Shown here: positions 2,409 through 40,644 of the stretch, in pieces | Layout: each line of letters starts with the position of its first letter | Position numbering within the stretch: the first letter of the stretch is position 1 | From: a virus | UHGV virus genome: UHGV-0357162 | Reading direction: 5' to 3' (one strand) | Length of the DNA stretch: 40,644 bases | Program-made: the position numbers and the translations under genes | Notes under the pieces: model-generated | Database searches by the model: none | Told to the model about the DNA's origin: nothing | The model's input: the letters and a program-made list of their open reading frames with translations, nothing else

Positions 2409-2422
2409 ATATCCCCTATATA

Positions 2423-2442
2423 AAAACCGCCGAAGCGGTTTT
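2423..2442 (-). terminator. rho-independent terminator downstream of the DUF1311-like moron
   Basis: Hairpin AAAACCGC-cgaa-GCGGTTTT; on the minus strand the stem is followed by TTTTTATAT; lies between the moron stop (2451) and the J-like start (2408). Confidence 0.5.
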
Positions 2443-2450
2443 AAGTTAAC

Positions 2451-4418: not shown

Positions 4419-4425
4419 CGTGCCC

Positions 4426-4572
4426 TCACCACCATCGGATCTGGCCAACAAAATACCCAGACGCCAGAATCAGAAAGACCAACCAGATAAGTAAAAACTT
4501 CCAATTGGGAAATTTCTCGCCCATAACTCGAATCTCAACTAGTAATTTATAAACAATGAAAAGAAACTTCAT
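4426..4572 (-). CDS. small hydrophobic peptide, paralog A (48 aa from ATG 4572, or 32 aa from ATG 4524)
   Basis: MKFLFIVYKLLVEIRVMGEKFPNWKFLLIWLVFLILASGYFVGQIRWW; AAGGGA RBS before 4572; paralogous to 4691..4789. Confidence 0.4.
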   Translation of the reverse strand: MKFLFIVYKLLVEIRVMGEKFPNWKFLLIWLVFLILASGYFVGQIRWW

Positions 4573-4690
4573 ACAAATCCCTTTGTAACAATTACTTATA
4601 CCAAGTCATTCTATGCTTGAGTTCACGTAGCAAATCATCCATGAAGTAATTTGTTGTTTTTTCATTGCTATATGTAAAGTTATGTAAAAA

Positions 4691-4789
4691 TTACCGCCAC
4701 CGGATCGCCTGAATCAAAGCGGATAGTCCAAATAAGAAAAACACACGCCATATCAACAGGAATTTCCAGTTGGGTAATCTTTCGCCCAT
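4691..4789 (-). CDS. small hydrophobic peptide, paralog B (32 aa)
   Basis: MGERLPNWKFLLIWRVFFLFGLSALIQAIRWR; AAGGAG RBS 9 nt upstream; shares MGE(K/R)xPNWKFLLIW with paralog A. Confidence 0.4.
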   Translation of the reverse strand: MGERLPNWKFLLIWRVFFLFGLSALIQAIRWR

Positions 4790-4806
4790 TTCTCGTAACT
4801 CCTTTA

Positions 4807-4971
4807 TCAGTTTTTCAGGTAAATCAATGTACCCGCCACTAATGCAGTACAAATGATCCAGGCAACAGGCGTAAGTACGTGACGAATCCCTCGGCATACC
4901 GCGATTATCCTCGCAGCCTTATCTGCTCCTTGCGGAGTTGTCTCAGCCTTAAGAATCAGTTCGCTATCCAT
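4807..4971 (-). CDS. small membrane protein (54 aa)
   Basis: MDSELILKAETTPQGADKAARIIAVCRGIRHVLTPVAWIICTALVAGTLIYLKN; polar N-terminus and one predicted TM segment; below the ORF-track length cutoff; start overlaps the end of the upstream mini-ORF. Confidence 0.35.
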   Translation of the reverse strand: MDSELILKAETTPQGADKAARIIAVCRGIRHVLTPVAWIICTALVAGTLIYLKN

Positions 4972-5056
4972 TTAGAACCTTTATGATCTCTGCGATTCCC
5001 GGAAGAGATTTAGCAACAGCAAACCCTCCGATAACTATAAGAACTGCATAAAACAT
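4964..5056 (-). CDS. small hydrophobic peptide (30 aa)
   Basis: MFYAVLIVIGGFAVAKSLPGIAEIIKVLNG; first gene after the terminator at 5191..5224. Confidence 0.25.
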   Translation of the reverse strand: MFYAVLIVIGGFAVAKSLPGIAEIIKVLNG

Positions 5057-5190
5057 TCTTCTCAGAACCGGACTTCTTTCGAGCAATTTTAGAGCTTCCA
5101 CAATCCAGTCTCCTCCGCTAAAATTAATCACGGAAGACCTCCAAACATACGTAATTATCCCTTGCCTTATTCAAGGTCAGAAACAGAAAA

Positions 5191-5224
5191 CCCCGACTGG
5201 GCCAACAGTCGGGGTTTTCGTTTT
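5191..5224 (-). terminator. rho-independent terminator downstream of the spike-like gene
   Basis: Stem CCCCGACTG / CAGTCGGGG with 6-nt loop, A-run on one side and TTTTCGTTTT on the other (bidirectional architecture). Confidence 0.55.
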
Positions 5225-5256
5225 ATGGGTAGTATTTAAAGTGAAATGAACCGGTA

Positions 5257-5970
5257 TTAACCCGGATTTGGTTTCTTCGACGTGATCGTACTGCCACCGC
5301 TTTGAACACCAGTCACATCGTGACTGTGGCTGCTGGCGCTCACGCCGTTGATAACTGCATCTTTCTCGACCTTAAGAGGACCAATCAGCGAAGCGGTTGT
5401 ATCCTTCATCTGGGCTTTGTCCTGGACGATCGGTCCGTTGAGGTGAATTTGACCGTTCATGAAGATATCTTCGGCCTCGAGGTAAACAGCTTTCGACTTT
5501 AGCCTGATTTCTTCCGGTGCCACCGTTACCGAGCTACTGCCGTCCTCTGTTTTGATGATCGCGCCATCCGGACCGTACAAAACGATTTTTTGCGGATCTT
5601 CGTCGGACCAGTCCTTGTTTGCCAGTGGCACGAAAAACAGGGGAGTGAGCGACATCGAGTAAGAGAGCGTCGCCATACCGGTTCCCAATCCGGACACACC
5701 GCGCAGGGATACATCAGCGGCAATTGTTACTCCTCGATCACCCGGCTGTATCGGGTAACGGATATACGGGAATGTGGCGACAGGGATTGTTATCTGCGGA
5801 AAGTTGATCCCCTCTGGCAACATATCAAACTGAACGGTCACTATCTGCCCACTGACATCGACAACATGGCAGGGCAATTCACGGCCTTTAAGCTCGGCTT
5901 GCTGGTTGCCAGAACTGGTCATCATCTCCGACAGCGTTCGGAGAAACGGTAATTTTTGAGCGTTTGACAT
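5257..5970 (-). CDS. baseplate central spike protein (gpV-like)
   Basis: 237 aa; C-terminus INGVSASSHSHDVTGVQSGGSTITSKKP resembles the His-rich apex of gpV/gp5-type spikes; ATGA overlap with the upstream gene. Confidence 0.55.
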   Translation of the reverse strand: MSNAQKLPFLRTLSEMMTSSGNQQAELKGRELPCHVVDVSGQIVTVQFDMLPEGINFPQITIPVATFPYIRYPIQPGDRGVTIAADVSLRGVSGLGTGMATLSYSMSLTPLFFVPLANKDWSDEDPQKIVLYGPDGAIIKTEDGSSSVTVAPEEIRLKSKAVYLEAEDIFMNGQIHLNGPIVQDKAQMKDTTASLIGPLKVEKDAVINGVSASSHSHDVTGVQSGGSTITSKKPNPG

Positions 5971-6965
5971 TACACCCTCGCCCAGTTCTCAGCATATGCC
6001 TCAAATACCGTCACCCAGGCATCGCCATCAGCTGTCAGATACGAACCAATGTGTCTGACCGATTTCACAAGAAATTTCCCGGTGAACGTGGTCGAATTTT
6101 TTGCGATAACGCTGGGTGCCGTTGTATTAGCCATCACAATCGACGCAGCGCCAGAATATAGCCCCTCCGGCAGTTTAACCACATCACCACATCTGATATC
6201 GCCTCTCATAGGACATTTGAAACTGACGGTAAACGGCGCTATCCATGTCGGCTGCCCGACCAGTTCATGGGCATGAATTGTTTTTGGCTCCCCCCACTTT
6301 GCTGACGCGTTATCGTAAATTCGTATTCTGTCGGAAAGAATACTGATGGCAATCCCGCTGTATTTCTCATCGCGCATCATTGCAATTGAAGCACTACGGA
6401 GGACCATAGCCAGCGAACCAATATCTTCGTAGGTTCCATTCCACGGTTCCGGCAAAACGAGGCTGTCGCTGACAGTACAATCGATCAACTTATTCGGAAA
6501 TGCCTTTTGCAACGCACGGAAGATTACATCACCAACCTTTTCCCCTTTAAGCCCCTCCCCCTCGATAGAGAACGGTTTACCATCATCTGTTTTGCGTACG
6601 GTTGGATTTATTACCAGGTTTAAGGTCTGGTTCGTGCCGATCCAGTTGGCATAGGCCAGATAAATTTCGCCATAAATAACCTCACCCTGTTGCTGTGGAT
6701 TTGCCAAAGGCAATCCCTCAACAAAGCCCGCTTTCATACGGACCAGACACCCCTGCAAACTCACGCTTTGCTTCAGCATGTCGATAGGCAAACCGTATAT
6801 TGTGAGCATCGTTCCTGAATTCACTACATCAAGACCCGCTACCTCTGTGGGGTAGTGATCAATTCTGGGCGGAGTTCGTGCAGCCTGGTAGAACCTGCAA
6901 GCCTTGTGTGGCGCGGGGTATGGTGATTTAGTGTGATTCTGGGCGGATTTGTGAGAAATGACCAA
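5970..6965 (-). CDS. baseplate hub-like protein, possibly 5'-truncated at the Mu-like prophage junction
   Basis: Track ORF starts at a TTG; the first ~28 codons (MVISHKSAQNHTKSPYPAPHKACRFY) look like translated non-coding DNA and overlap repeats 6863..6946; confident coding from about residue 30 (PRIDHYPTEVAGLDVV) or from M at 6809. Confidence 0.4.
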   Translation of the reverse strand: MVISHKSAQNHTKSPYPAPHKACRFYQAARTPPRIDHYPTEVAGLDVVNSGTMLTIYGLPIDMLKQSVSLQGCLVRMKAGFVEGLPLANPQQQGEVIYGEIYLAYANWIGTNQTLNLVINPTVRKTDDGKPFSIEGEGLKGEKVGDVIFRALQKAFPNKLIDCTVSDSLVLPEPWNGTYEDIGSLAMVLRSASIAMMRDEKYSGIAISILSDRIRIYDNASAKWGEPKTIHAHELVGQPTWIAPFTVSFKCPMRGDIRCGDVVKLPEGLYSGAASIVMANTTAPSVIAKNSTTFTGKFLVKSVRHIGSYLTADGDAWVTVFEAYAENWARV

Positions 6966-7158: not shown

Positions 7159-7806
7159 TTATGCTGATTTCTTGTTTACAGGCTTAGTTTCTTGCTCCGG
7201 TGTGACGGGAACGCGATCACCTGGTGTTCCAGCACAGAAAATGGCTTTGGCGCGGCGCAAAATCTCTTTGTCATTTTCCTCATCGCCAGCTAATGCCATG
7301 CAAACAGCGTCTTTAAGCGATTGCCTGATGTTCAGGCTTTGAATGGCCTTCCTTTGCTCCTCAAGTTCGCTATCGGCTTGCTTAGTTTGCCTGGTGGGTT
7401 GCTGTAGGCGTTCCAAGATTCCTTTAATGCCCATATCGCATATTGCACTTATCAGTTGTTCCTTATCTTCTGTGGACGCTCTTTTCAATAACTCGTTAAC
7501 TAGCTCGTTTGTAATATCGGGAGAAGGCTGCGCTGTTTGATTTGATAGAGAACCTTCTTTGGCGGTGGGTTCCTCACCATAAGCGAGCCAATTTAAGCTC
7601 ACTTGTTCTTTATCTGAGATAAGACAAGCTATTTTAAAAGAAGGCTCTGTTCCTTTATGAATGTAGTTGTTTAAGGTTGAAGGGGGGATTCCCCAATCAC
7701 TCGCAGCAGTTCTGACACTACGGTTACCTATCAGCTTTACTAAACGCTCTCTGAAACTTTCTTTTCCCTGGTCGACAAAAGAAAAAGCATCATCATTTCT
7801 AGTCAT
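7159..7806 (-). CDS. prophage repressor (Mu c position), HTH DNA-binding protein
   Basis: 215 aa, transcribed divergently from the ner-like gene; N-terminal helix-turn-helix-like region SVRTAASDWGIPPSTLNNYIHKG. Confidence 0.55.
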   Translation of the reverse strand: MTRNDDAFSFVDQGKESFRERLVKLIGNRSVRTAASDWGIPPSTLNNYIHKGTEPSFKIACLISDKEQVSLNWLAYGEEPTAKEGSLSNQTAQPSPDITNELVNELLKRASTEDKEQLISAICDMGIKGILERLQQPTRQTKQADSELEEQRKAIQSLNIRQSLKDAVCMALAGDEENDKEILRRAKAIFCAGTPGDRVPVTPEQETKPVNKKSA

Positions 7807-7988: not shown

Positions 7989-8225
7989 ATGATGGTTAGA
8001 AATGAAGTAATGAACAAAGACTGGCACCGCGAGTACATCGTTGCCGCTGTGCACACCAAAGGTTTTACATTGCGTGAACTTTCTGAACGCGCTGGTCTAA
8101 AAAAAGACTCTTTAAAAAATGCACTGTATCGCTCATGCCCTAAATATGAACGCATCATAGCCGATGCTATTGGTGTGGAACCTGCGGAGATCTGGCCAAG
8201 CCGGTATGCCAGTAAGGCGGCGTAA
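7989..8225 (+). CDS. ner: Ner-like DNA-binding protein
   Basis: About 78 aa starting MMVRNEVMNKDWHREYIVAAVHTKGFTLRELSERAGL; position directly upstream of the transposase with TAATG overlap; the track N-terminal extension covers the operator. Confidence 0.7.
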   Translation: MMVRNEVMNKDWHREYIVAAVHTKGFTLRELSERAGLKKDSLKNALYRSCPKYERIIADAIGVEPAEIWPSRYASKAA

Positions 8226-10267
8226 TGTTTTATTCAGCCAATGAGCTGGCCGGTCTTCCTGGTTTGCCCGGTACAGTTCAGGGGGTGCGCTGGACGCTCA
8301 ATCGGATCACAGAGACGCACCCAGAATGGAAGCGCAAGCGCGAAGGCACCAAAGCATTCGAGTATCACATCGACTGCCTGCCCGCTGAAGCGCAGAAAGT
8401 TTTACGTAAGCGCCTGACTCATCAGGTCCTGGAAGATGCACAACTGCCCGCCGTAGTTGAGCAGAAAGCAGTTAAAAACGTCGCCGTTCGCGATGAACTG
8501 GAGGTGATGGTCAAATGCCCGGAGCTGGCATTACGCGAAGTCCAGTCACTGACCGACAAGCAAAAGGCCATCGCTGATGCGCGGATATTGCTGGCTACTG
8601 AAGTGCATAAGCTGCGCGAGTATGCCGGAATGACCAGGAAGGCCGCTTTAAAGCACATCGTTGATGGTGTGCGCATGGGGGCGTTACCTGACCGCATTAT
8701 CGAAGCAGCGAATACTGCAAATGCACGTCAGGGAAAGCGAACCGGTGTCAGCACCGGCAGCCTGGATAGCTGGTACTCCAGCTGGGTGATGGCGCGCGGT
8801 GATGCCAATCAGTTACTGGCGTTACTGGCTCCCGGTCATCATAAGGGAACACCGTGGGAGCAGGTCTGGTGGTTGAGCGATTTCTTTATGTTCTATCGCT
8901 CATGGAAGCGCCCGACTGTTGAATATGCGTATCGTGAGTTTTCAGCCTGGTGGCATGAAAAACACGCGAATGATGCGGGAATGCTGGCGGCACTGCCTTC
9001 AGTTCACGCAGTAAGACGGGTGTTAAGCAGCGTCCCGGTGATTGTTAAAGAGCGTTTCCGCTCCACCGGTTCAGCCTGGCGTTCGCTCAATCCCTTTGTG
9101 CGGCGCGACTGGACATCATTACCGGTTAATGCGGTATGGGTCGGGGATGGTCACTGTATGAAAATGACCGCGTTTAACCCCCTGACCGGCAATATTTTCC
9201 GGCCAGAAGTGACGCTGGTTATGGATGCGGGGCAACGCTTTGTTGTGGGCTGGTCACTGTCCCTGTCGGAGAACGTGATAGCCGTTGCTGATGCGTTACG
9301 TTACGGCATGGCGCAGCACGGGATACCGCTGATTTATTACTCCGATAACGGGGGCGGTGAAAAAAACCGGGTGCTTGATGCCGATATTACCGGGATTCTG
9401 CCCCGGCTGGGTGTGGAACATCACACGGGGATACCAGGTAACCCGCAGGGGCGCGGGGTGATTGAACGGGCAAACAAAGGAATACCCAAAGACGTGGCTC
9501 TGAGTTTCCAGACGTACTGCGCAAGGGATGCAGACAAGGAAACCGTAATGATGCAGCAACGGATTATGCAGTCAGCCATTAAGGCCACCCACAAAGGGAA
9601 AGAACTGACAAAACGGCAGGTTAAGGCGAGGGATGAAATCCCCACCTTTGAGCAACTGCTGGCAGCCATAGAGCTGGAGGTCAGACGCTATAACAACCGG
9701 CCACACAGCAGCCTACCCCGCAAAGAGGATGGCGAATATTACAGCCCGGCAGCGTATCGCCGGAAACTGATAAAAGAGCAGAATGTTGAAATTGATTTCC
9801 TGTCGCCGGAAGAACTGCATGAAATGTTCAGACCGGAAGTGACGCGCAAAACATTTCGCGGGGAAATTCAGTTATTCAACAATATTTATTACTCATATGA
9901 TCTGGCCGCAGAGCACGGGAATGAAGTCAGGGTCAGTTACGATATTCATGATGCAAACAGCGTCATTGTCCGGCGGGCTGATGGCTCTTATATCTGCGAT
10001 GCCATCTGGAACGGTAACAAGGTTGATGCCTTCGCTAAACCAGTTATCGAACAAAAACTGGAGAAACGCGTCAGGGGCCGCATTGCACGGGCTACGCAGA
10101 AAATCGAAGAGGCTAAACGCGAGCTTACCCCGGCTATTACGCAGAAGCCTGACTTTAATCTGGGATATGGACTGGAGCGCCCGGAGAAAAAGGAAAAAGA
10201 AGAACTTTATTTATTCGCATCTGAACGCGAGCGCAATTTAAAGAAAAACGGCACAAACAACCGTTAA
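8225..10267 (+). CDS. A: Mu A-type DDE transposase
   Basis: 680 aa; N-terminus ANELAGLPGLPGTVQGV resembles the MuA DNA-binding N-terminus; DDE-core-like VWVGDGHCMKM; followed by the MuB-like ATPase. Confidence 0.9.
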   Translation: MFYSANELAGLPGLPGTVQGVRWTLNRITETHPEWKRKREGTKAFEYHIDCLPAEAQKVLRKRLTHQVLEDAQLPAVVEQKAVKNVAVRDELEVMVKCPELALREVQSLTDKQKAIADARILLATEVHKLREYAGMTRKAALKHIVDGVRMGALPDRIIEAANTANARQGKRTGVSTGSLDSWYSSWVMARGDANQLLALLAPGHHKGTPWEQVWWLSDFFMFYRSWKRPTVEYAYREFSAWWHEKHANDAGMLAALPSVHAVRRVLSSVPVIVKERFRSTGSAWRSLNPFVRRDWTSLPVNAVWVGDGHCMKMTAFNPLTGNIFRPEVTLVMDAGQRFVVGWSLSLSENVIAVADALRYGMAQHGIPLIYYSDNGGGEKNRVLDADITGILPRLGVEHHTGIPGNPQGRGVIERANKGIPKDVALSFQTYCARDADKETVMMQQRIMQSAIKATHKGKELTKRQVKARDEIPTFEQLLAAIELEVRRYNNRPHSSLPRKEDGEYYSPAAYRRKLIKEQNVEIDFLSPEELHEMFRPEVTRKTFRGEIQLFNNIYYSYDLAAEHGNEVRVSYDIHDANSVIVRRADGSYICDAIWNGNKVDAFAKPVIEQKLEKRVRGRIARATQKIEEAKRELTPAITQKPDFNLGYGLERPEKKEKEELYLFASERERNLKKNGTNNR

Positions 10268-20247: not shown

Positions 20248-21888
20248 GTGGCAAAACGTAAACTTTCCATTAAAGAGTTTCAGAGAAGCCTGCAGGAGTA
20301 CATCGCCAACCTCCGCCAGACCATTGAGGCTGAATGTCTGGGGTTCGATGTTAACCCACAGGCCACACAGGCCCGCCGGGCGGCAGTCTGCGATCCGGTG
20401 ACGGGCTATGATTATTTTGTCGAAAATTATTTCCCGCACTACGTCCGCAACCCGGCAAAAAGCGAGCTGCATAAATACCTGTTCAGCCGTCTGCCACAGG
20501 TTGTGGCAAGCCCGGACCCGGAGAACGACGCCATCGCCGCGCCCCGTGGTGAAGCAAAATCCACGCTGGTGACGCAGCTGTTTACCCTGTGGACCATTAT
20601 CCAGGCCATTAAGCATTACCCGGTCATCATTATGGACAGTATCGACCAGGCTTATCCGATGCTGGAAGCCATCAAGGCTGAACTGGAATTTAACCCCCGT
20701 TTAAAAAACGATTTCCCGGAAGTGTGCGGGCAGGGGCGCGTCTGGCGTATGGGGACCATCGTCACGGCCAACAATATCAAGGTGACCGTTGCCGGTAGTG
20801 GTAAAAAGCTGCGTGGTCTGCGCCACGGTCCGTACCGTCCTGACCTGGTTATCCTCGACGACATCGAGAACGACGAGATGGTGCGTAACCCGGAGCAGCG
20901 CGACAAGCTACATGACTGGCTCACCAAAACCGTGATGCCGCTGGGCGAGGCTGGCGGTAAAACAGATATTATTTATATCGGGACCATCCTGCATTACGAC
21001 TCCGTACTGTCGCGCACACTCAATAACCCGATGTGGAAAACGGCCCGTTTTAAGGCCGTCATTCAGTGGCCTGCCAATATGAAACTGTGGGACGAGTGGG
21101 AAGAACTCATCCGCAACAAACAGCCGGAAGCGGCGGAGGCACTTTACCGGCAGAACGAAGCCGAGATGCTCGCCGGGTCGGTGGTGTCATGGGCGGCGCG
21201 TCCCCTGCTGGCGCTGATGAAAATCCGTGTCCGTGATGGTCACGACACCTTTGATTCTGAATACCAGAACGACCCGGTCAGCGGTGAAGATGCGCTGTTT
21301 GCGGGCTGCATTAAGTTCTGGGTTAACCGTCTTGATGAATGGGTGTTTTATGGTGCTGTTGACCCCAGTCTCGGGAAGAAAAACAAAAACCGCGACCCGT
21401 CGGCCATTCTCGTGGGGGGCTTTAACCGCTTTACCGGCATTCTGGATGTGGTTGAAGCCGATATCCGCCGACGTCTGCCGAATAAACTTATCGAAGACGT
21501 GATTAAGTATCAGCGGGAATATCACTGCCTGTGCTGGTCGTTTGAGTCCGTCCAGTTTCAGGAGTTTCTGCGTACCGTGCTGGTTGAGCGTTCGGCGGCG
21601 CTGGGCGTACCGGTTCCGGCGCTGCCGGTCATCCCGCTGGAGGATAAGGCGCTGCGTATTGAATCCCTTCAGCCGCATATGGCCAACGGCCTGATTCGTA
21701 TCAGCCACACACATCAGACACTGATTGACCAGCTGCGCCACTACCCCAAAGCCGACCACGATGATGGCCCGGACTGTCTGCACATGCTGTGGACGCTGGC
21801 GGTATCGCGCAGCGCAAAATTTCAGATTCACACCCCACGCAGCAGCGGGCGTGACCGTGGCGGGCGTTTTGGTTCAGGAGGATGGTAA
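20248..21888 (+). CDS. terminase large subunit (Mu gp28-like)
   Basis: About 547 aa from GTG 20248; the track ORF begins at a TTG at 20191 inside the methyltransferase gene; followed by portal with overlapping start. Confidence 0.7.
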   Translation: MAKRKLSIKEFQRSLQEYIANLRQTIEAECLGFDVNPQATQARRAAVCDPVTGYDYFVENYFPHYVRNPAKSELHKYLFSRLPQVVASPDPENDAIAAPRGEAKSTLVTQLFTLWTIIQAIKHYPVIIMDSIDQAYPMLEAIKAELEFNPRLKNDFPEVCGQGRVWRMGTIVTANNIKVTVAGSGKKLRGLRHGPYRPDLVILDDIENDEMVRNPEQRDKLHDWLTKTVMPLGEAGGKTDIIYIGTILHYDSVLSRTLNNPMWKTARFKAVIQWPANMKLWDEWEELIRNKQPEAAEALYRQNEAEMLAGSVVSWAARPLLALMKIRVRDGHDTFDSEYQNDPVSGEDALFAGCIKFWVNRLDEWVFYGAVDPSLGKKNKNRDPSAILVGGFNRFTGILDVVEADIRRRLPNKLIEDVIKYQREYHCLCWSFESVQFQEFLRTVLVERSAALGVPVPALPVIPLEDKALRIESLQPHMANGLIRISHTHQTLIDQLRHYPKADHDDGPDCLHMLWTLAVSRSAKFQIHTPRSSGRDRGGRFGSGGW

Positions 21889-31828: not shown

Positions 31829-34091
31829 TTTCAAAGTTGGCATGACCCTGACTGCGAAGGACGAAGCCTCGCAGGTTCTGGAAAAGGGACAAAAACAGGT
31901 TATCAAAGCCACCGAAGGTGTAACAAAGGCGACACGGAAGGCAGGCGCAGAGCAGAAGCGTACCGAGCAGGAAAGCATTAACAGCACGAAAAAGGCCGCA
32001 AAAGAGATACAGCGTGCCGCCCGTGCCCGGGAAACGCTCGGTATTCGTGCAGAGCGTGAGATCCGGCGTGAAATTTATCTGACGGTTGCCAGTTATAACC
32101 GTCTGGCCCGCGCCGGTTTTGAATCTGCGCAGGAGCAGGAGCGCGCCATGCAGGCCACCCGGGAAAAAGCCCGAGCACTCAAGCGCGAACTGGATGGCGT
32201 TACTCAGGCGCAGATGAAGATGGCGAAAACGCCTGTTATCCCTGAACCGGGGCGTTTTGCGCGTGCGGCTGCGTTTGGCGGGAATGCCGTGACAATAGGC
32301 GGTGGTATCGCGGCAGGTGCGGCCATTATGGCGCAGCCAGTCAAAAAGCAGATGAGCTACGAACGCCAGCTGGCAATGATGGCCAATACCGCCTTCAGTG
32401 ATGGCGGGCTGGAGGGGCGCAGGGCTGGTCTTGAGCAGATGAAAAGCAGCATCCGTAACGCGGTGACCTATGGCGGCGGTACGAAAGAAGACGCAGCCGA
32501 AACACTGGATGCCCTGCTGAAAGATGGCGGTATTTCATTTGAAACAGCCAGCAAGTGGCTTCCTGAACTGATGAAATACGCCACAGCTTCCGGTGCATCA
32601 GCGACAGACCTGGCTAATGTGATGCTTAAGGGTAAAAAGACCTTTGGATTCAGGGATGAAGATATTTCCACCGTTCTGAATATGGCGATTGCGGCAGGAA
32701 AAGAAGGCAGCTTTGAACTGAACGATATGGCCCGCTGGTTATCCCAACAAATGGGATCTGCGTCAGCTGCGGGAATGAAAGGCAAGGATGATTTCGTCAA
32801 GATTCTTGCGCTGAATGAAGCCGCCGCGATCACAGCTGGTAGCAGTGATGAAGCAGGGAATAACGTGGTTAACCTGCTGGCCAAACTGACCAGCCATGAT
32901 ATTGAAACTGCGGCAAAGAGCATTGATTACAACGGTAAAGGGATTGATTTTTCAGGTACGCTGACTGAAGCGCGCAAGCATGGACTGGATCCGATAGACG
33001 CGCTTTCCAGCCTGATAGACAAAATCGTTGCCAACGATAAACGCTATCAGGATTTGCAAAAGAAACTGTCATCTGCCCGGGATAAAGGTGAACAGACGGC
33101 TGTTTACGATTCGATGGCAAAACTCCTTGAAGGCTTTGGTGTCGGGAAACTGGTTGCAGACCGTCAGGCGTTGATGGCGTTGTTAGCCTACCGTAACAAC
33201 CCGGAATACCGTAAGAAGGTTGAAGACGCGATTAATCAGCAACGTACCCTGCCGGAAGGCCAGCGCGCGGGGGATGTTGATTTCAGATTCATATCCGGCC
33301 TCAATGACTTTAAAACCGAACAGGCTAAAAACACGCTTGAATTTTCACAAATGGACAGCGTGAAAAAGCTGGCTGATGCGTCCGGTACTGTGGCCGATGC
33401 CATAAGCTGGGCGGGTGAAAAATTTCCGGGACTGACCACGGCAGTGGTGGGTGCCACGACCGCCATTGAAGCGATGACCGCAGCGGCCCTGACATGGGCC
33501 GGGATCAAAATCCTGACCGGGGGTAAACCCGGTGGCAAGGCTGGCGAGGTCGTCGGTGATGTCATTGAAAACACGGTCAAAAAAAGCAAAGGATTTAAAT
33601 TCCCCGGCATTGCCGGTAGCCTGCTTTCTTTCGGTGGCACCGTTACGGCACTGGCCACCGCAACCAGCCCGGAAGAAGACGCCGCCGTAGAAGGAAGCGA
33701 AGAACGCTGGAAGCGCATCCGTGCCCGATACCCCCAGGAAATCATCGACGCTGCCCGTAAAAAATACCAGCCGTGGTGGCAGTTTGGGGAAGGCTACTCC
33801 ACCGAAAACGAAGAGTGGTTGAGGCGCTGGGAGGAAGACAGGAAAAAAGCCGCAGCTGATGCCCTGCCATCACCGGCACAGGTCAACAAAACCGCCGGAA
33901 ACACAACGCCTGAATCAGCATCCAGGCAAACCGGACGCATCACCCAGCCGGAATACCTCACGCACTGGGGACCACCTGCCAGCCCCATTAATTTCACCAC
34001 ACAACTGGTGCTCGATGGTCAGGTTGTGGCGGAAGCAGTGAACAAATACAACCTTCAGGACGGTAACAGAGGCACGGGAGGAACTTACTGA
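31818..34091 (+). CDS. tail tape measure protein
   Basis: 757 aa; Ala/Lys/Glu-rich helical N-terminus and Gly-rich hydrophobic segments; position after the chaperone. Confidence 0.8.
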   Translation: MAGNFKVGMTLTAKDEASQVLEKGQKQVIKATEGVTKATRKAGAEQKRTEQESINSTKKAAKEIQRAARARETLGIRAEREIRREIYLTVASYNRLARAGFESAQEQERAMQATREKARALKRELDGVTQAQMKMAKTPVIPEPGRFARAAAFGGNAVTIGGGIAAGAAIMAQPVKKQMSYERQLAMMANTAFSDGGLEGRRAGLEQMKSSIRNAVTYGGGTKEDAAETLDALLKDGGISFETASKWLPELMKYATASGASATDLANVMLKGKKTFGFRDEDISTVLNMAIAAGKEGSFELNDMARWLSQQMGSASAAGMKGKDDFVKILALNEAAAITAGSSDEAGNNVVNLLAKLTSHDIETAAKSIDYNGKGIDFSGTLTEARKHGLDPIDALSSLIDKIVANDKRYQDLQKKLSSARDKGEQTAVYDSMAKLLEGFGVGKLVADRQALMALLAYRNNPEYRKKVEDAINQQRTLPEGQRAGDVDFRFISGLNDFKTEQAKNTLEFSQMDSVKKLADASGTVADAISWAGEKFPGLTTAVVGATTAIEAMTAAALTWAGIKILTGGKPGGKAGEVVGDVIENTVKKSKGFKFPGIAGSLLSFGGTVTALATATSPEEDAAVEGSEERWKRIRARYPQEIIDAARKKYQPWWQFGEGYSTENEEWLRRWEEDRKKAAADALPSPAQVNKTAGNTTPESASRQTGRITQPEYLTHWGPPASPINFTTQLVLDGQVVAEAVNKYNLQDGNRGTGGTY

Positions 34092-35440
34092 TGGGCTGGA
34101 CTGAAAACCTGCAAAACGCTTCCTTTCGTGGCGTGCAGTTTGATGTGCTGAACACGGATGAACAAATCAGCCGCGACCATGCGGTCTATGAATACCCGTT
34201 TGTTGACGGGGCGGATTTGCACGACCTCGGACGCAAGGCGAGACCGTTCCGCATGACGGCGTTCCTGTGGGGGGAGTATTACGAATATAAACTTGAAAAG
34301 CTGACCGCCGCCCTGGATAAAGGCGGCGATGGTGAGCTGATTCACCCGGTTTACGGCTCCGTACCGTCGGTGATTGTGACCGGCTACAGCATCCGCCATG
34401 ACGCAGAAAGCCCGGACAGCTGCACCATCGACATGAGCTTTCTGGAGAACCGCACCGGCAGCGCGTTGTTCAGCACCCCGTTACCGGAGCTGTTTGCACA
34501 GCAGTTATTTGAAGAACTGGATAAGTTACTGGCACAGTTAAGCGAATTGTTTGACGCTGTTACGGCCCCTTTAAAGACCATTAACAGCGTGATAAAAAAA
34601 ATCCAGACGGTGCGTGCCACGCTGGTGAATACCCTGCTGATATTCAAAAGCGATTTTCTCTCATCCATCGACAATATGATGTCGCTGGCCAGCGAACCCG
34701 GAAAGTTTATCGGCGGACTGGCAGAGGTGCTGGAAATCCACACGTCAGATGTCGGGCACGCGGTGCCGGTGCTGGAGCGTACTGATTCCGCCACCACGAC
34801 CGGACTGACCGGAGAAGACAGCGTCGCCAGTTCTGCGACCGTGATGACCTGCTGGAATGAGGTGATGGCAGATATGGATGAGCTGGTCGCGCTGCCGGTC
34901 GCACTGGTCAGCGGTGATAAAACGCCGTCTGTGGCACTTCCGCCGGATGCGTCCGTGGAAGACGTGCAGGACGTGAAAGCGGCTTATGCGGTTCTGGCAG
35001 CCTCAGAGCTGGCCAGCGTGGCGACGGCGATACTGTCAGATGAGGCCCAGTCAGAGCAGCTTATACCGGCGGATATCGGGCGACTGGTCGGGGATGTGCG
35101 CACCCGCTTACAGGCCGCCATCACGCTGTTCCGTGAACGCTATGAAGGCGAACGCGAACGGATAACCGAAACCGCATCACCACTGGGGCTGATGTACCCG
35201 GAAATCATTCAGAGCATGAAGAACGTGGCGGCATCCGTGCAGGATGTCGGTCTGCTGGTTCTGTCACGCCGCCCACCGCTGACGCAGAAACAGGTGCAGG
35301 CGGACAGCTGTCTGCTGTTGCTGGCGTGGCAGTGGTACGGTAATTACAGCCGTGCGGCAGAACTGCAACGTCTGAACCCGCAGCTGCGTGACCCGAACAA
35401 CATAACCGCCGGGATGGTGATTAATGCCTATGCAAAATAA
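34091..35440 (+). CDS. DNA circularisation protein N-like (Mu gp43)
   Basis: 449 aa; position after the tape measure. Confidence 0.7.
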   Translation: MGWTENLQNASFRGVQFDVLNTDEQISRDHAVYEYPFVDGADLHDLGRKARPFRMTAFLWGEYYEYKLEKLTAALDKGGDGELIHPVYGSVPSVIVTGYSIRHDAESPDSCTIDMSFLENRTGSALFSTPLPELFAQQLFEELDKLLAQLSELFDAVTAPLKTINSVIKKIQTVRATLVNTLLIFKSDFLSSIDNMMSLASEPGKFIGGLAEVLEIHTSDVGHAVPVLERTDSATTTGLTGEDSVASSATVMTCWNEVMADMDELVALPVALVSGDKTPSVALPPDASVEDVQDVKAAYAVLAASELASVATAILSDEAQSEQLIPADIGRLVGDVRTRLQAAITLFRERYEGERERITETASPLGLMYPEIIQSMKNVAASVQDVGLLVLSRRPPLTQKQVQADSCLLLLAWQWYGNYSRAAELQRLNPQLRDPNNITAGMVINAYAK

Positions 35441-36635
35441 CGACGACAAAATCAGCCTGGTCATTGCCGGAAGGTCGCATTCTGACTGGAGCAGTTATCG
35501 TATTGACAGCGATTTCCTGAAAGCCGCCGACGGGTGGCAGCTTCAGCTGGGACTGCCTGAAAAGGTGTTCCCGGCGGATATCGTCCGGGGTGCGCCGGTC
35601 CGTTTGCAGGTGGGAGACGAGACGGTCCTCAGTGGTCGCGTGGACAGCGTGCGCCGCAGTGTATCCCGTCAGAGCTGCACGCTGACCCTGTCCGGGCGTG
35701 ATGATGCCGCCATTCTGGTGGACTGTGCCGCGCCGGTGTTCAGCGCCAATCAGCTGACGCTGGACGAGGTCATCGACAGGATTGTCAGACCGCTGGGGAT
35801 ACAGCGCATCCGTATTCAGGCGTCCGGTGTGTCACGTAATGACAAGGTCGTTATAGAGCCGGGGATGCGTGCGTGGGATGCACTGGCCAAAGCTGCCGCC
35901 GGTCGCGGCTTATGGCCGTGGTTTGAGCCTGACGGGACGCTGGTTGTGGGTGGCCCTGACTACACCACCACGCCGGTGGATACGCTGATTCTGAAGCTGG
36001 ACGGCACCGGGAACAACGTGATGGAGCTGGACGATACCCGGTCCATTAACGGCTGCTTCTCCGAACTTACGGTACTGGCTCAAAGCCACGCCCGCCGCGC
36101 AGACAGCAAAAAACAACTGGTCGTGGTGCCACTGGATATCTGGAACGAGGACGGCAGCGTGCGCACGTTATCCGGGCGGGACGGCGGTAATACTGACAAT
36201 GGCCAGACAGGTATTCATAACATGAAAGCCGTGGCCACCGACCCCACCGTGGATTATTACCGCCCGCAGATAATTACCCAGGGCGACACCAGTAACATGG
36301 AGCAGGTGAACTGGCGCGCCAAAAAAATGATGAGTGATGCCCGCCTGTCGGGGCTGGATATCGTCGCACTGGTTGCAGGTCATCGCACGGCAGACGGTGT
36401 TCTGTGGCAGCCCGGCCAGCGAGTACGGATTGTCAGCGAACCCCACGGCATCGATGCCATCTTTTTTCTGATGGGCCGCGAGTTCAGCGGAGGCCGGAGC
36501 GGGCAGACAACCCGGCTCCGCTTTAAGGAGGATGGTGTGTGGATACCTGATGCCTTCCCGCGCGAGAAGAAACGCCATCACCGCAGGGGCAAAAAGAAAA
36601 AAGAAGTCGCCATTGTTAAGGTCTGGGAGAAATGA
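35424..36635 (+). CDS. baseplate hub protein P-like (Mu gp44)
   Basis: 403 aa; position before the spike gene; basic C-terminal tail. Confidence 0.7.
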   Translation: MPMQNNDDKISLVIAGRSHSDWSSYRIDSDFLKAADGWQLQLGLPEKVFPADIVRGAPVRLQVGDETVLSGRVDSVRRSVSRQSCTLTLSGRDDAAILVDCAAPVFSANQLTLDEVIDRIVRPLGIQRIRIQASGVSRNDKVVIEPGMRAWDALAKAAAGRGLWPWFEPDGTLVVGGPDYTTTPVDTLILKLDGTGNNVMELDDTRSINGCFSELTVLAQSHARRADSKKQLVVVPLDIWNEDGSVRTLSGRDGGNTDNGQTGIHNMKAVATDPTVDYYRPQIITQGDTSNMEQVNWRAKKMMSDARLSGLDIVALVAGHRTADGVLWQPGQRVRIVSEPHGIDAIFFLMGREFSGGRSGQTTRLRFKEDGVWIPDAFPREKKRHHRRGKKKKEVAIVKVWEK

Positions 36636-37286
36636 TGTGGGACAAGGTTAATCAGCGCATACAGCAGGCACTGGCCGCCGTTCGCCAGGCATTCAGGGTG
36701 GTGACCGGTACGGTAGACAGTTCTACCAAAGTACAGCTACTTCAGCTGAACGGTCTGGCAGGCGAACAACTGGACGGTGCGGAGTATTTCCAGCATTACG
36801 GCCTCACCACATCCCCGCCGCCCGGCTCAATGGGTATTGCCGTTCCGCTGAACGGTAATACCTCCCATACCGTCGTCGTGGCCACAGAGCACGGCGCATA
36901 TCGCCTGACGGAACTGAAACCCGGCGAGGTGGCCCTGTATACCGACGAAGGCGCGAAAATCGTGCTGAAGCGCGGGCGGATTGTTGAAACCGAATGTGAC
37001 GTTTACCGGGTGAAATGCAAACGCTATGAGGTTGAGGCAGAGGAAAGCGCCGCATTCACGACACCGTTACTGACGGCCAGCGATAAGCTGACGGTGGAAG
37101 GTAAAATCACCGGCAACGGTGGCATGGCCATCCGTGGGGGGCAAGAAATACGCCGCCACCTTTGAAGGCAACATCAACCATGTGGGTGGTGTGATTACCT
37201 CCGTTGACGTCACCATTAATGGCGTTAAAATCGGAACGCACAAACACCCGACCCCACACGGCATGTCTGACACGCCGGTTAATTAA
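36632..37286 (+). pseudogene. baseplate spike gp45-like gene interrupted by a +1 frameshift in a G6 tract (about 37136..37141); track ORF ends at 37165, C-terminal apex is encoded in the next frame to 37286
   Basis: Removing one G gives ...AIRGGKKYAATFEGNINHVGGVITSVDVTINGVKIGTHKHPTPHGMSDTPVN, a His-rich spike-tip-like C-terminus ending just before the late box at 37287. Confidence 0.55.
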
Positions 37287-37315
37287 GTGCTGAACACCCT
37301 CACCTGATTCTGACC
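37287..37315 (+). promoter_or_regulatory. conserved late-promoter box, copy 3 (GTGCTGAACACCCTCACCTGATTCTGACC), upstream of gp46
   Basis: Identical 16-bp core to copy 2; lies 53 bp upstream of the gp46 ATG. Confidence 0.45.
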
Positions 37316-37339
37316 TGTCCATGCTGCCAGACTGGCGGC

Positions 37340-37690
37340 ATGGACCAGACGATTTCACCTGCAACCGGCGACTACGAACGCCGCCGGATTTATACACTTC
37401 ATAACGCGGTTTATCTGCGACTGGCGACGCCGCTTGGCAGTTACTGGGCGGATGCGTCGCTGGGGTCACGCCTGCACGAACTGAAGCGGGAAAAAGACGT
37501 TTCCCGTGTTCACAGGCTGGCGGCGCAGTATGCCAGCCAGGCTCTTCAGCCCCTGCTTGATGACGGGCGGGCAAAATCCATTACCGTTGACACGAAAGCG
37601 GGTCAGCGCGGCTGGCTGTTGCTGTTAATCACCGTCACGGATAACGCGGGCACACCGCAGACGTTTGAACACCCTGTGAGGATTATGTAA
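37340..37690 (+). CDS. Mu gp46-like baseplate protein
   Basis: 116 aa; position between spike and J-like genes. Confidence 0.55.
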   Translation: MDQTISPATGDYERRRIYTLHNAVYLRLATPLGSYWADASLGSRLHELKREKDVSRVHRLAAQYASQALQPLLDDGRAKSITVDTKAGQRGWLLLLITVTDNAGTPQTFEHPVRIM

Positions 37691-38769
37691 TGCCGTTTCC
37701 TGTTCCGGGCGTTGCTGAAAACACAGAACGCCAGCTACGTGATATCGCTAACGCCCTGCCGGGAGAAACCATCGACACCGGCGCAGACAGCGATTACCGC
37801 ATTCGTGCAAATGCCGTATCCGGCGTGGCGGACGGGCTTTATATGCATCAGGGGTGGATACTCCGACAGGTGTTTCCTGACACGGCAGACCCTGAATATC
37901 TGGAGCTGCACTGTCGCACGCGCAACGTTTTTCGTAAAAAAGCAACGGCCTCATCCGGTCCGGTAGTGATTACCGGCACACCCGGTAAGACGCTGCCAGC
38001 CGGTGCGGAAATTCGTGGTGAAGGTGTCAGCGTGGCCACCACAGCAGACTGCACCATCGGTGATGAAGGCAGCGCAGAGGTGACGGTAAAAAGCACTGCC
38101 ACGGGTGCACAGACGAACGCATCCACGACGCAGACGGCAACGCTGGTCAGCCCGCCGGAAGGTATCAACAGCACGGTGACGATTAAATCCCTGACCGGCG
38201 GAACGGACAGGGAAAGTGACGCCGACCTGCTGGCGCGTTATCTGGATATTCTGCGCAGGCCGCCAGCTGGCGGTAATAAATATGATTACAAACGCTGGGC
38301 GCTGGAAGTGGATGGCGTTACCTCGGCATATGTGGAGCCATTGCGTCGTGGACTGGGGACGGTTGATGTGGCCATTACGTCAGCCAATGACCTTCCCTCG
38401 CAGGAACTGATTAATGCCGTGCTGGCACATATTGAGGAAGTCCGCCCGGTCACAGCAAAGGACACGATGGTGCTGGCACCGACGAAAAAAGCCGTTGATT
38501 TCGTTGTCCGGGTAAAAACCAGCGGCCTGACCGTTGAGCAGATAAAACCGCAGATAACTGACGTTATCACGGATTTTATGAACCGGCTGGAGCCGGGGCA
38601 GGAATTAATAATTTCACAACTGGAAACCCAGATTTCATTAATTTCCGGTGTCAGTGACCGGCGAATCATTACGCCAGCAGACAACGTAAAAGCCATTATT
38701 AACGCGTCAACGTGGGAATGGTTGCGCCCGGGAAATATTGATATTCAGTCTTTTCCACGTGAGGGGTGA
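37690..38769 (+). CDS. baseplate J-like protein (Mu gp47)
   Basis: 359 aa; position and size typical of baseplate J. Confidence 0.7.
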   Translation: MPFPVPGVAENTERQLRDIANALPGETIDTGADSDYRIRANAVSGVADGLYMHQGWILRQVFPDTADPEYLELHCRTRNVFRKKATASSGPVVITGTPGKTLPAGAEIRGEGVSVATTADCTIGDEGSAEVTVKSTATGAQTNASTTQTATLVSPPEGINSTVTIKSLTGGTDRESDADLLARYLDILRRPPAGGNKYDYKRWALEVDGVTSAYVEPLRRGLGTVDVAITSANDLPSQELINAVLAHIEEVRPVTAKDTMVLAPTKKAVDFVVRVKTSGLTVEQIKPQITDVITDFMNRLEPGQELIISQLETQISLISGVSDRRIITPADNVKAIINASTWEWLRPGNIDIQSFPREG

Positions 38770-38773
38770 TTTT

Positions 38774-39346
38774 ATGAATATGGTCGATTTATTTCGCGCC
38801 ATGCTGCCACCTGTCAGTTATGACCTGAACGGGAAATATATTTCCGCAGAACTGACAGCCGAGGCTGACGTCATGGAGGCCGTGAAAGCCTCAGCGGCGC
38901 GCGTTCTGGCACAAATCACCCCGTTGCAGGCATCGATGACGCTGTCCGACTGGGAGCGCGTGTACGGTGTTGTCCCCCGTGAAGAGGCAACACAACAGGA
39001 GCGGCGGCAGAACATTCTGGTAAAAATGGCAGCCACGGGCGGACTGTCAATCCCTTACTTTAAGAGCCTTGCCGCCAGTCTGGGCTATACCATCACCATT
39101 ACGGAGCCGCGACCGTTCCGGGTGGGGATAAACCGCTGCGGCGACCGTCTGCTGATACCGGAAATCCGCTGGGCGTGGCAGGTCAACGTTATCGGGACAA
39201 AAACACCTGTCTATCGGTTCAGAACGGGCGCATCGGCAACCGGCGAACCGCTGACGGCCTTTGGTGAATCCATTTTAGAAAACACGTTTAAAGACCTTAA
39301 ACCGGCTTTTACAGACTGTTATTTCACGTATGAGGTGGAGGAATAA
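38774..39346 (+). CDS. Mu gp48-like tail protein (DUF2313)
   Basis: Start MNMVDLFRAML after GAGGGG RBS; the track ORF starts at 38738 within the previous gene's end. Confidence 0.55.
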   Translation: MNMVDLFRAMLPPVSYDLNGKYISAELTAEADVMEAVKASAARVLAQITPLQASMTLSDWERVYGVVPREEATQQERRQNILVKMAATGGLSIPYFKSLAASLGYTITITEPRPFRVGINRCGDRLLIPEIRWAWQVNVIGTKTPVYRFRTGASATGEPLTAFGESILENTFKDLKPAFTDCYFTYEVEE

Positions 39347-40149
39347 TGCAGAATTTAATGCCCCCGGTGAATACGCCGGATAAGTTATTTCATGATGGTG
39401 ACCCGACTCAGGGAATTGAGGGAACCATCGTTACTGCTGAATTTATGAATAATCATCAGGCAGCAACGCGTGATTTGCAGCAGGAGGTGATTAACGTCCT
39501 TAAAGAGGCTGGCGTCACCCCTGACCCGGAAAAACAAAACCAGCTGGTTGAGGCGCTGACCTCGTTTATTGGCCAGAAAGTCCCGGATGCATCACTGACG
39601 CAAAAAGGCGTGGTGCAGCTTAACAGTGCTGTTAACAGTGAATCAGAAACAGAAGCTGCCACACCAAAAGCGGTCAAGATTGCGATGGATAACGCAAACG
39701 CCAGACTGGCCAAAGACCGTAACGGCGCAGACATCCCGAATAAACAATTGTTTCTGGATAACATCGGCGGTGCGCCGAAAACGCGCAAAATTAACAATAT
39801 GCCCCTGACGTCGGATATCACCATCAACAACATCGGCGGCAACGCCGGAACGGCAACCCGGCTTCAGACGGCCCGCAGGATTAACAATGTGCTGTTTGAT
39901 GGCACCAGCGATATCACCATCAACACCACAGATTCCGGCGCTGTGCGTAATTTTCAGTACACCAATGAGGTGTTTCACAATCCCGGTGGCAACGAAATCA
40001 CCTGGACGTTTCGCGCGCCTTCCGGCTGTCAGTTGTCAGGAATTTATGTCCAGGATACGGGGAGAAGTTCGGCGGATAACATCGGTGGTGTGTATTACAA
40101 ATCCGCGCAGATTTATATCAATGGTTCATGGCGCACCGTATCAGGTTAA
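39346..40149 (+). CDS. tail fibre protein (Mu S-like, short)
   Basis: 267 aa; contains the TQKGVVQLNSAVNSESETEAATPKAVK fibre motif shared with P2 H/Mu S fibres. Confidence 0.7.
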   Translation: MQNLMPPVNTPDKLFHDGDPTQGIEGTIVTAEFMNNHQAATRDLQQEVINVLKEAGVTPDPEKQNQLVEALTSFIGQKVPDASLTQKGVVQLNSAVNSESETEAATPKAVKIAMDNANARLAKDRNGADIPNKQLFLDNIGGAPKTRKINNMPLTSDITINNIGGNAGTATRLQTARRINNVLFDGTSDITINTTDSGAVRNFQYTNEVFHNPGGNEITWTFRAPSGCQLSGIYVQDTGRSSADNIGGVYYKSAQIYINGSWRTVSG

Positions 40150-40163
40150 TTAAGGAGAAAATA

Positions 40164-40644
40164 ATGGAACTCAGAAACGTTTCGCGTTATTACCCGGAAA
40201 ATATGCCTTATGGTAAGGATATTCAGTATTTCCGCAGTGAAGACGGACAGGATTTTTATGAATCACTGGATAAATTTACGAAGAAATACAAATTGTGTAT
40301 TCACCCGGAAACCGGCGTGATTTATTCAATGGCGGAAGACGTGTCCCGTCTTTATCCGGCTGGCTTCACCATTGTGGAAGTGGATGAACTGCCGGAAGGT
40401 TTTGGCATTGAAGCTTGCTGGTATTACCAGGATGGCGAAGTGCTGCCGGTTCCTGTTGATTATTCGCAACTGGCAGAAACACAACGCCAGCGCCTGTTGA
40501 ATGAAGCAAAGGACATCACCTCCGACTGGAAAACCGAGCTGGAGCTGGGCACCATCAGTGACGACGACAAGGCCCGTCTTACGCAGTGGATGGCATATAT
40601 TAAAGCGGTAAAGGCGCTGGATTTAAGTCAGGTCAGTGATGAAT
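40164..40644 (+). CDS. tail fibre assembly protein (Mu U-like), partial at window end
   Basis: AAGGAGA RBS then MELRNVSRYYPEN...; C-terminal LGTISDDDKARLTQWMAYIKAV matches the Tfa/U family pattern; the frame runs off the window. Confidence 0.7.
   Translation, partial: MELRNVSRYYPENMPYGKDIQYFRSEDGQDFYESLDKFTKKYKLCIHPETGVIYSMAEDVSRLYPAGFTIVEVDELPEGFGIEACWYYQDGEVLPVPVDYSQLAETQRQRLLNEAKDITSDWKTELELGTISDDDKARLTQWMAYIKAVKALDLSQVSDE

What the first reader, a model, noticed from the sequence alone, without database searches (positions are those of the whole stretch)
36632..37286. Baseplate spike gene (gp45-like) split by a +1 frameshift in a G6 homopolymer
The gp45-like ORF stops at 37165 (...AIRGGQEIRRHL), but reading from the G6 run (about 37136..37141) with one G removed gives a 52-residue continuation, ...GNINHVGGVITSVDVTINGVKIGTHKHPTPHGMSDTPVN, ending at 37286 right before the gp46 late-promoter box. 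The His-rich HxH-type tip is what gpV/gp5-type spike apex domains look like, and the left-hand spike paralog (5257..5970) ends in a similar SHSHDVTG motif. So the gene is either a sequencing/assembly indel, a real pseudogene making the prophage tail-defective, or a slippage-prone homopolymer that switches spike production on and off.
Basis: partly seen in the sequence, partly recalled or inferred. Interest (0 to 1): 0.7.

Follow-up and report, generated by a model that had tools for sequence, protein, structure and literature searches.

The report
Frameshifted spike gene in Mu-like prophage
One extra G in a run of Gs cuts short the tail-spike gene of an otherwise intact Mu-like prophage of E. 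coli; this is an ordinary recent knockout mutation, or possibly a sequencing error, and not a built-in switch.

Summary
The gp45-type spike gene (36632/36635..37165) stops early, and the missing C-terminus (47 aa, to 37286) lies in the next frame after a G6 run at 37136..37141. All relatives examined carry one base fewer and encode an intact 216-218 aa protein. That covers 48 of 48 matching complete E. coli genomes, 3 public metagenome or virome contigs and 17 fetched loci, with GGGGG, GGAGG or GGCGG at the site. A contig from a different sample (Logan ERR11438258) matches the window at all 2,532 aligned bases except this one G. The lost segment holds the HxH motif, invariant in 43 homologues, which aligns with the THKHP apex motif of P2 gpV. 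In Mu gp45 the apex binds Fe and Ca. Every other prophage gene with a counterpart in the closest relative is full length. The left flank shows 0 indels in 6.8 kb against a finished genome, and two assemblies report the truncated product. The best reading is therefore a very recent, unprogrammed G5-to-G6 insertion that disables the spike. A read-level error cannot be excluded without reads. A programmed frameshift or an evolved on/off switch is not supported, because the tract is short, not conserved and interrupted in relatives. Interest is low.

The parts
36635..37165 (+). Truncated gp45-type spike ORF as it stands. It has 176 aa from the ATG used in relatives (177 aa from 36632). It keeps the OB-fold and most of the beta-helix, then reads 7 out-of-frame residues (QEIRRHL) and stops.
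   Evidence: Phage_Mu_Gp45, E=7.6e-24; Mu gp45 9ki1_V, E=1.9e-13; the exact product is on record in only 2 contigs.
37136..37141 (+). G6 homopolymer, the site of the one-base insertion. It spans the invariant Gly-Gly codons. The ancestral reading is CGT GGG GGC AAG (R G G K).
   Evidence: Relatives have GGGGG, GGAGG or GGCGG here, always one base shorter. L023 differs from the window only at this base.
37142..37286 (+). Orphaned C-terminal coding segment in the +1 frame: 47 aa plus the stop. It encodes the last beta-helix turns and the apex with the HxH motif (THKHPTPHG).
   Evidence: aligns to P2 gpV ...NGKVLHTHKHPGDSG; H202 and H204 invariant in 43 homologues; 100% identical to B1172 residues 168-216.
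35424..36635 (+). gp44/GpP-like baseplate hub gene, immediately upstream. It is intact.
37340..37690 (+). gp46-family baseplate wedge gene, immediately downstream. It is intact.
37317..37345 (+). Conserved 11-13 bp RNA hairpin that holds the gp46 start codon (37340) in its 3' arm. This is context, not part of the lesion.
   Evidence: (z=-4.05).

Best explanation
The lesion is a genuine, very recent, unprogrammed loss-of-function mutation. Replication slippage added one G to a G5 tract (GGG GGC, the invariant Gly-Gly of the spike beta-helix) in the gp45 gene of a Mu-like (SuMu-like) transposable prophage of E. coli. Translation now leaves the frame after residue 169 (numbering from the ATG at 36635) and stops 7 codons later. 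The product lacks the last 47 residues, which form the final turns of the trimeric beta-helix and the metal-binding HxH apex. Inferred, not shown: such a spike cannot close and sharpen the baseplate tip. The prophage can still be induced, transpose and lyse, but it should make tail-defective or non-infectious particles. Rare G6-to-G5 revertants would be the exception. The rest of the prophage has not yet decayed.
For: 1. All relatives are one base shorter and intact. This holds for the 40 listed of 59 matching complete E. coli genomes and for 48 of 48 matches to the 101-nt core. The alignment and translations give 216-aa proteins.
2. The exact repaired protein exists in nature (P0016). Its contig (Logan ERR11438258_322, a different sample) is identical to window 34764..37296 except for the G at 37136. 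The lesion therefore sits on an unchanged background.
3. The truncated product was called in two assemblies, the ENA scaffold and a Logan contig. The run behind the Logan contig was not shown. An assembler-specific artefact is therefore unlikely.
4. The window is not indel-prone. Against STEC711 it shows 1 substitution and 0 indels over 6,845 bases that contain 42 homopolymers of 5 or more. Across 25 kb against B1172 this is the only uncompensated coding indel. Every prophage gene that has a counterpart in B1172 is full length with no stops.
5. The lost part matters. HxH is invariant in 43 homologues 54-92% identical to the intact reference homologue P0017. It aligns with THKHP of P2 gpV. Mu gp45 has OB-fold, beta-helix and apex domains with Fe and Ca in the apex (PMC11915804). 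The best Foldseek hit is Mu gp45, E=3.3e-10.
Against: No reads were available, so a read-level homopolymer error shared by both assemblies is not excluded. It is not established whether the Logan contig with G6 comes from an independent sample. G6 was found in no other genome or metagenome. It is therefore a singleton, which is also what an error would look like. The functional consequence (a defective tail) is inferred from homology and was not tested.
Confidence: 0.6

Rival explanations
1. Sequencing or consensus artefact. The real sequence is G5 and the gene is intact. One extra G was introduced at the read or consensus level in this metagenome assembly.
For: The window matches a metagenome scaffold, ERZ28665698 scaffold_208 (100% over 6,531 bases). 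G6 is a singleton among all genomes and contigs examined. An otherwise identical G5 copy exists. The lesion lies in a homopolymer, the classic place for indel errors.
Against: Two assemblies give the same truncated product. There are no other indel errors: 0 indels in 6.8 kb against a finished genome, and no other broken gene in about 33 kb of prophage holding 53 homopolymers of 6 or more window-wide. A noisy long-read consensus would be expected to break several genes.
Confidence: 0.3
2. Evolved phase-variable switch. The G tract is a contingency locus that toggles spike production, and so infectious-particle production, on and off.
For: The lesion lies in a G homopolymer, and a one-step slip restores the frame. 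G5 and G6 versions exist on an identical background in two samples.
Against: The tract is short (G5 or G6). Known contingency tracts are usually 8 or more, which is background knowledge and was not tested here. The tract is not conserved: 4 of 17 relatives' loci have GGAGG or GGCGG, and more distant homologues keep only the Gly-Gly residues. No off-state allele was found among 48 genomes or about 800 cluster members. The tract simply encodes two structurally invariant glycines.
Confidence: 0.04
3. Programmed recoding. Full-length spike is made from the G6 allele by +1 ribosomal frameshifting or transcriptional slippage, so the gene is functional as written.
For: A P-site tRNA-Gly could re-pair one base forward on GGG GGG C. 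The resulting product would be identical to the wild type (...RGGKKY...). This follows from the sequence.
Against: All homologues encode the protein in a single frame without the extra base. That includes the identical-background copy, so no recoding signal has been conserved. No stimulatory element, such as a rare or stop codon in the A site, sits at the site: the next codon is CAA. Any read-through would be incidental leakiness.
Confidence: 0.03
4. The truncated 176-aa protein, alone or together with a separately translated C-terminal fragment from GTG 37119, still works as a spike.
For: The OB-fold domain that docks on the hub, and about two thirds of the beta-helix, are retained.
Against: No natural homologue ends with the frameshifted tail; the short cluster members are contig-end partials that continue in the normal frame. 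The HxH apex is invariant. The 55-aa ORF product is not on record anywhere.
Confidence: 0.03

Closest known systems
Phage Mu gp45 (central spike / baseplate puncturing device; PDB 9KI1 chain V, 3VTO)
   Same: It occupies the same position in the baseplate operon, between hub gp44 and gp46. It has the same Pfam N-terminal domain (E=7.6e-24). Sequence matches are E=1.9e-13 to 9ki1_V and Foldseek E=3.3e-10. The layout is the same: OB-fold, beta-helix and apex (PMC11915804).
   Different: Identity is only about 29%. The repaired protein is 216 aa against 197 aa in Mu. In Mu, gp45 and gp46 overlap, whereas here a 53-nt spacer with a hairpin separates them. In this window the gene is frameshifted.
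Phage P2 gpV membrane-piercing spike (PDB 3QR7, 3QR8, 3AQJ) and the R2 pyocin spike (4S37)
   Same: The C-terminal motif ...NG..(I/L).THKHP..G aligns residue for residue with gpV. Fold matches are E=6.5e-5 for 3qr8 and 2.7e-5 for 4s37. The HxH motif is the iron-binding tip in this class, which is background knowledge from Browning et al. 2012 and was not re-read here.
   Different: Sequence similarity is weak overall (E=0.036 for the full length). The N-terminal domain family also differs.
Haemophilus phage SuMu gp45 and the widespread E. coli 'phage baseplate assembly protein V' of SuMu-like prophages
   Same: SuMu is the closest isolated phage with near-full-length coverage (45% aa identity over 94% of the query; a Klebsiella phage reaches 51% but over only 74%). 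E. coli prophage homologues are 88-99% identical, share the same gene order, and occur in 59 of 5,426 complete genomes.
   Different: All of those are intact. Only this copy has the extra G.
Homopolymer frameshift pseudogenes in decaying prophages
   Same: It is a single-base indel in a short homopolymer that inactivates a structural gene of an integrated phage.
   Different: Here it is the only lesion in an otherwise intact prophage. An unmutated twin is on record, so the event is very young.

Membership tests
Mu gp45 / P2 gpV-type central spike of contractile tails | N-terminal OB-fold domain of the Mu gp45 type | tested here: met
   Pfam PF06890 Phage_Mu_Gp45, residues 22-88, E=7.6e-24, above the curated cut-off.
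Mu gp45 / P2 gpV-type central spike of contractile tails | Position in the baseplate operon directly after the hub (gp44/GpP/gpD-like) and before gp46 and the Baseplate_J wedge genes | tested here: met
   Pfam hits of the neighbours. The gene order is the same in the annotated relatives.
Mu gp45 / P2 gpV-type central spike of contractile tails | C-terminal beta-helix ending in an apex with a conserved HxH metal-binding motif | tested here: met
   This is met only in the repaired reading. THKHP aligns to gpV THKHP, and H202 and H204 are invariant in 43 homologues. The ORF as written lacks it. Metal binding itself cannot be tested here.
Mu gp45 / P2 gpV-type central spike of contractile tails | Overall fold similar to solved spikes | tested here: inconclusive
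   The AF2 monomer model of the 95%-identical P0017 has only pLDDT 66.7 and pTM 0.41. The top Foldseek hits are all spikes (9ki1_V E=3.3e-10, 4s37, 3qr8), but TM-scores are 0.3-0.4.
Programmed ribosomal frameshift / recoding site | The two-frame arrangement and the slippery site are conserved among homologues | tested here: not met
   All homologues are single-frame and one base shorter, and the site is GGAGG or GGCGG in several.
Phase-variable contingency locus (simple-sequence repeat switch) | A long, conserved homopolymer tract, with both on and off lengths recurring among strains | tested here: not met
   The tract is G5 or interrupted in all 17 relatives' loci. G6 occurs only in the window's own scaffold. 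No other off-state allele was found in 48 genomes or in the scans for G5-G8.
Phase-variable contingency locus (simple-sequence repeat switch) | Tract-length heterogeneity within one population | not testable with these tools
   This needs the read pile-ups of SAMN14445711.
Mu-like transposable prophage | Mu-type transposase and MuB-like ATPase, Mor activator and Mu-type late genes, with insertion at varied chromosomal sites | tested here: met
   The relative is annotated with a Mu transposase C-terminal domain protein, an AAA ATPase and Mor, and the window aligns to them. The same repressor gene is flanked by a different host gene in each of 10 genomes. The left end starts with TG at 6846.

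The most novel reading that the evidence does not exclude
The G tract in the invariant Gly-Gly codons acts as a reversible on/off switch for spike production in a family of E. coli Mu-like prophages. A lysogen population would then mix producers of infectious phage with producers of tail-defective particles. The G5 and G6 twins seen in two samples would be the two states.
Probability: 0.04. Interest if true: 0.5.

Novelty: already known. Interest (0 to 1): 0.12.

Why it matters
The main value is for annotation. The two ORFs should be labelled as one frameshifted gp45/gpV spike pseudogene, or flagged as a possible homopolymer error. They should not be called as a short spike plus an orphan peptide. 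The prophage should be scored as probably tail-defective even though it otherwise looks complete. If the mutation is real, it is a clean example of the first step of prophage domestication, caught with its intact twin on record. It does not bear on any open mechanistic question.

Tried and rejected
1. Exact look-up of the 177-aa product from the first ATG found nothing. The 176-aa form from the second ATG was found.
I reached that contig indirectly, through the identical gp44 with a narrow flank.
3. I tried to learn whether the G5 twin contig has the same insertion site, using the repressor protein. That protein is too widespread (762 blocks), so the contig was not returned. Whether the two lysogens are clonal remains unknown.
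4. DNA search of the phage collection gave only one weak partial hit. A protein-level search was needed.
5. A literature search for the sample accession found nothing, so the sequencing platform is unknown.
6. The AF2 monomer model was of limited quality, as expected for an intertwined trimer. It was used only as supporting evidence.
7. I considered translational coupling between gp45 and gp46 through the start-codon hairpin as a route to a polar effect. I rejected it as a firm claim because the normal gp45 stop lies about 31 nt upstream of the hairpin, and the covariation evidence is not significant with 4 sequences.
8. The scan does not cover Mu C-dependent promoters.

Full report
**What is in the sequence.** The window reads ...GGC ATG GCC ATC CGT GGG GGG CAA GAA ATA CGC CGC CAC CTT TGA. 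The G6 run is at 37136..37141 and the stop is at 37163..37165. The ORF 36632..37165 encodes 177 aa ending AIRGGQEIRRHL. The next frame stays open to 37286 and encodes ...KKYAATFEGNINHVGGVITSVDVTINGVKIGTHKHPTPHGMSDTPVN. Pfam places the first ORF in Phage_Mu_Gp45 (E=7.6e-24). Its neighbours are a GpP/gp44-like hub (35424..36635), GP46 (37340..37690) and Baseplate_J (37690..38769). Two minor slips: the continuation is 47 residues rather than 52, and the 'late-promoter box' has no support.

**Comparison with relatives.**
- A megablast of 36632..37290 finds the gene in 59 of 5,426 complete E. coli genomes at 80-97% identity (most above 90%). Every listed match spans 658 bases against 659 in the query.
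- A 101-nt probe centred on the run finds 48 genomes, and every match is one base shorter.
- Aligning four relatives puts the gap in the G run. Two have GGGGG, one GGCGG and one GGAGG. All encode a 216-aa 'phage baseplate assembly protein V' whose C-terminus is the window's +1 frame.
- Across 17 relatives' loci the site is GGGGG (13 loci, two of them after CGA), GGAGG (3) or GGCGG (1). G6 occurs only in the window's own scaffold.
- A pattern scan allowing G5 to G8 in this context returned 2 IMG/VR contigs and 1 metagenome contig, all G5.
- Among 539 homologues with E<=1e-5, the best 120 are 212-222 aa and cover 94-100% of the repaired protein, apart from contig-end partials that stay in the normal frame.

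**Source of the window and the twin allele.** The exact 176-aa truncated product (from the ATG used in relatives) is on record in only two contigs. One is ENA ERZ28665698 'XUQI22-1_SAMN14445711_METAG-scaffold_208' (75 kb). It is 100% identical to window 33635..40165 and is presumably the window's source. The other is a Logan contig of 20-50 kb. The exact repaired 216-aa protein is also on record (P0016). I reached its contig through the identical gp44 protein. Logan ERR11438258_322 (34,350 bp, a different sample) is identical to window 34764..37296 over 2,532 bases, except that it lacks the G at 37136. The next-closest relatives are about 97% identical. The G5 parent therefore exists on the same background, and the insertion is either very recent or not real.

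**Is the assembly error-prone?** The left flank (1..6845) differs from the finished genome of E. coli STEC711 by one substitution and no indel, across 42 homopolymers of 5 or more and 13 of 6 or more. Against the closest prophage (strain B1172, 97.6% over 25 kb), the G at 37136 is the only uncompensated indel inside a coding region. The other indels are intergenic or are compensated pairs in diverged stretches. Every B1172 prophage protein that has a counterpart in the window aligns full length without stops. Only gp45 splits into two frames, residues 1-171 and 168-216. This does not look like a noisy homopolymer-prone consensus. Two assemblies agree on G6 (the run behind the Logan contig was not shown). 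A read-level error is still not excluded, because the reads and the platform are unknown.

**What is lost.**
- The repaired protein matches Mu gp45 (9ki1_V E=1.9e-13; 3vto E=9e-4) and, more weakly, P2 gpV (3qr7 E=0.036).
- The C-terminal segment aligns ...TFEGNINHVGG...NGVKIGTHKHPTPHG with gpV ...TMRGNIEHTGG...NGKVLHTHKHPGDSG.
- In 43 homologues 54-92% identical to the intact reference homologue P0017, the two His of the HxH motif and G168 of the Gly-Gly pair at the tract are invariant; the second glycine, G169, is at least 90% conserved.
- The Mu cryo-EM paper describes gp45 as OB-fold, beta-helix and apex, with Fe and Ca densities in the apex. It suggests these ions stabilise the tip for envelope penetration (PMC11915804).
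- An AF2 monomer model of the 95%-identical P0017 is only moderate (pLDDT 66.7). Its best Foldseek matches are nevertheless Mu gp45 (E=3.3e-10), the R2 pyocin spike and P2 gpV.

The frameshift removes the last 47 residues, which form the end of the helix and the whole apex. That this abolishes spike function is an inference from conservation and was not tested.

**Mechanism and rivals.** The ancestral codons are CGT GGG GGC AAG. A slip adding one G gives the observed sequence.
- A genuine recent mutation is the best reading (about 0.6). It is supported by the two agreeing assemblies, the clean flanks and the twin allele.
- An artefact (about 0.3) is kept alive by the singleton status of G6 and the homopolymer context.
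- An evolved phase switch (about 0.04) fails its defining features. The tract is short and interrupted in relatives, and no other off-state alleles are known.
- Programmed recoding (about 0.03) fails because no homologue shares the two-frame layout.
- A functional truncated spike (about 0.03) has no natural precedent among the homologues.

Incidental reversion (G6 to G5), or low-level +1 slippage on GGG GGG C, could give traces of full-length protein. That would be leakiness, not design.

**Context noticed on the way.**
- The prophage is a Mu-like transposable phage: repressor at 7159..7806, transposase at 8225..10267, a MuB-like ATPase, Mor, then lysis, head and tail genes. Its closest isolated relatives are distant: 45% with Haemophilus phage SuMu over near-full length, up to 51% over 74% of the protein with a Klebsiella phage, and 29% with Mu.
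- Its left end (6846) lies inside a 335-aa gene of a second, resident prophage, just upstream of that prophage's own spike-like gene (5257..5970, minus strand). STEC711 has the uninterrupted gene. One prophage has therefore disrupted the baseplate region of another.
- The resident spike-like protein ends ...INGVSASSHSHDVTG and aligns weakly with the repaired gp45 (E=2e-4).
- The 53-nt gp45-gp46 spacer folds into a strong hairpin with the gp46 AUG in its 3' arm (dG -26.9 kcal/mol for 77 nt, z=-4.05). The hairpin is invariant in 12 E. coli relatives. It is retained in Yersinia and Aeromonas relatives with U-A, U-G or C-G at one pair, but four sequences give no statistical support.
- Rfam finds sRNA-Xcc1 at 3412..3497.

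**Verdict.** The feature itself is ordinary. It is a single-base homopolymer frameshift that knocks out the spike gene of an otherwise intact prophage, or a one-base error. Its practical value is correct annotation. Interest is 0.12.

Noticed in passing
window 6845/6846 (junction); 5970..6965 (-) truncated gene; compare L006 11970..12977: The Mu-like prophage is inserted inside a 335-aa gene of a second, resident prophage, directly upstream of that prophage's own spike-like baseplate gene. E. coli STEC711 carries the same region uninterrupted (6844/6845 identical, 0 indels). One prophage has knocked out a baseplate-region gene of another.
   Followed up: partly
window 37317..37345 (+): A strong RNA hairpin (11-13 bp stem, 3-nt loop; z=-4.05) places the gp46 start codon (37340) in its 3' arm. 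It is invariant in 12 E. coli relatives and retained in Yersinia and Aeromonas relatives, with U-A, U-G or C-G at one pair. The sequences are too few for significance. Phage Mu itself has overlapping gp45/gp46 genes instead. It may set gp46 translation level; its function is unknown.
   Followed up: partly
window 3412..3497 (+): Rfam match to sRNA-Xcc1 (RF02221): 72.5 bits against a gathering score of 53, E=1.9e-11. It lies in the resident prophage, between an LprI-family gene and an antirepressor gene.
   Followed up: no
window 5257..5970 (-): This is the resident prophage's 237-aa 'phage baseplate protein'. It has no Pfam hit but aligns weakly to the repaired gp45 (BLASTP E=2e-4) and ends ...INGVSASSHSHDVTG. 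It is a second, divergent HxH-type spike in the same window.
   Followed up: partly
window 7159..7806 (-) and loci L024-L033: The identical repressor protein occurs in 762 collection blocks. In each of 10 genomes shown, a different host gene flanks the prophage. This shows that the prophage family inserts quasi-randomly, like Mu.
   Followed up: partly
window 21882..21888: At the terL/portal junction the window lacks 4 bases (TAAT) that B1172 has. terL and the portal gene therefore overlap here instead of being separated, and both ORFs stay intact.
   Followed up: no
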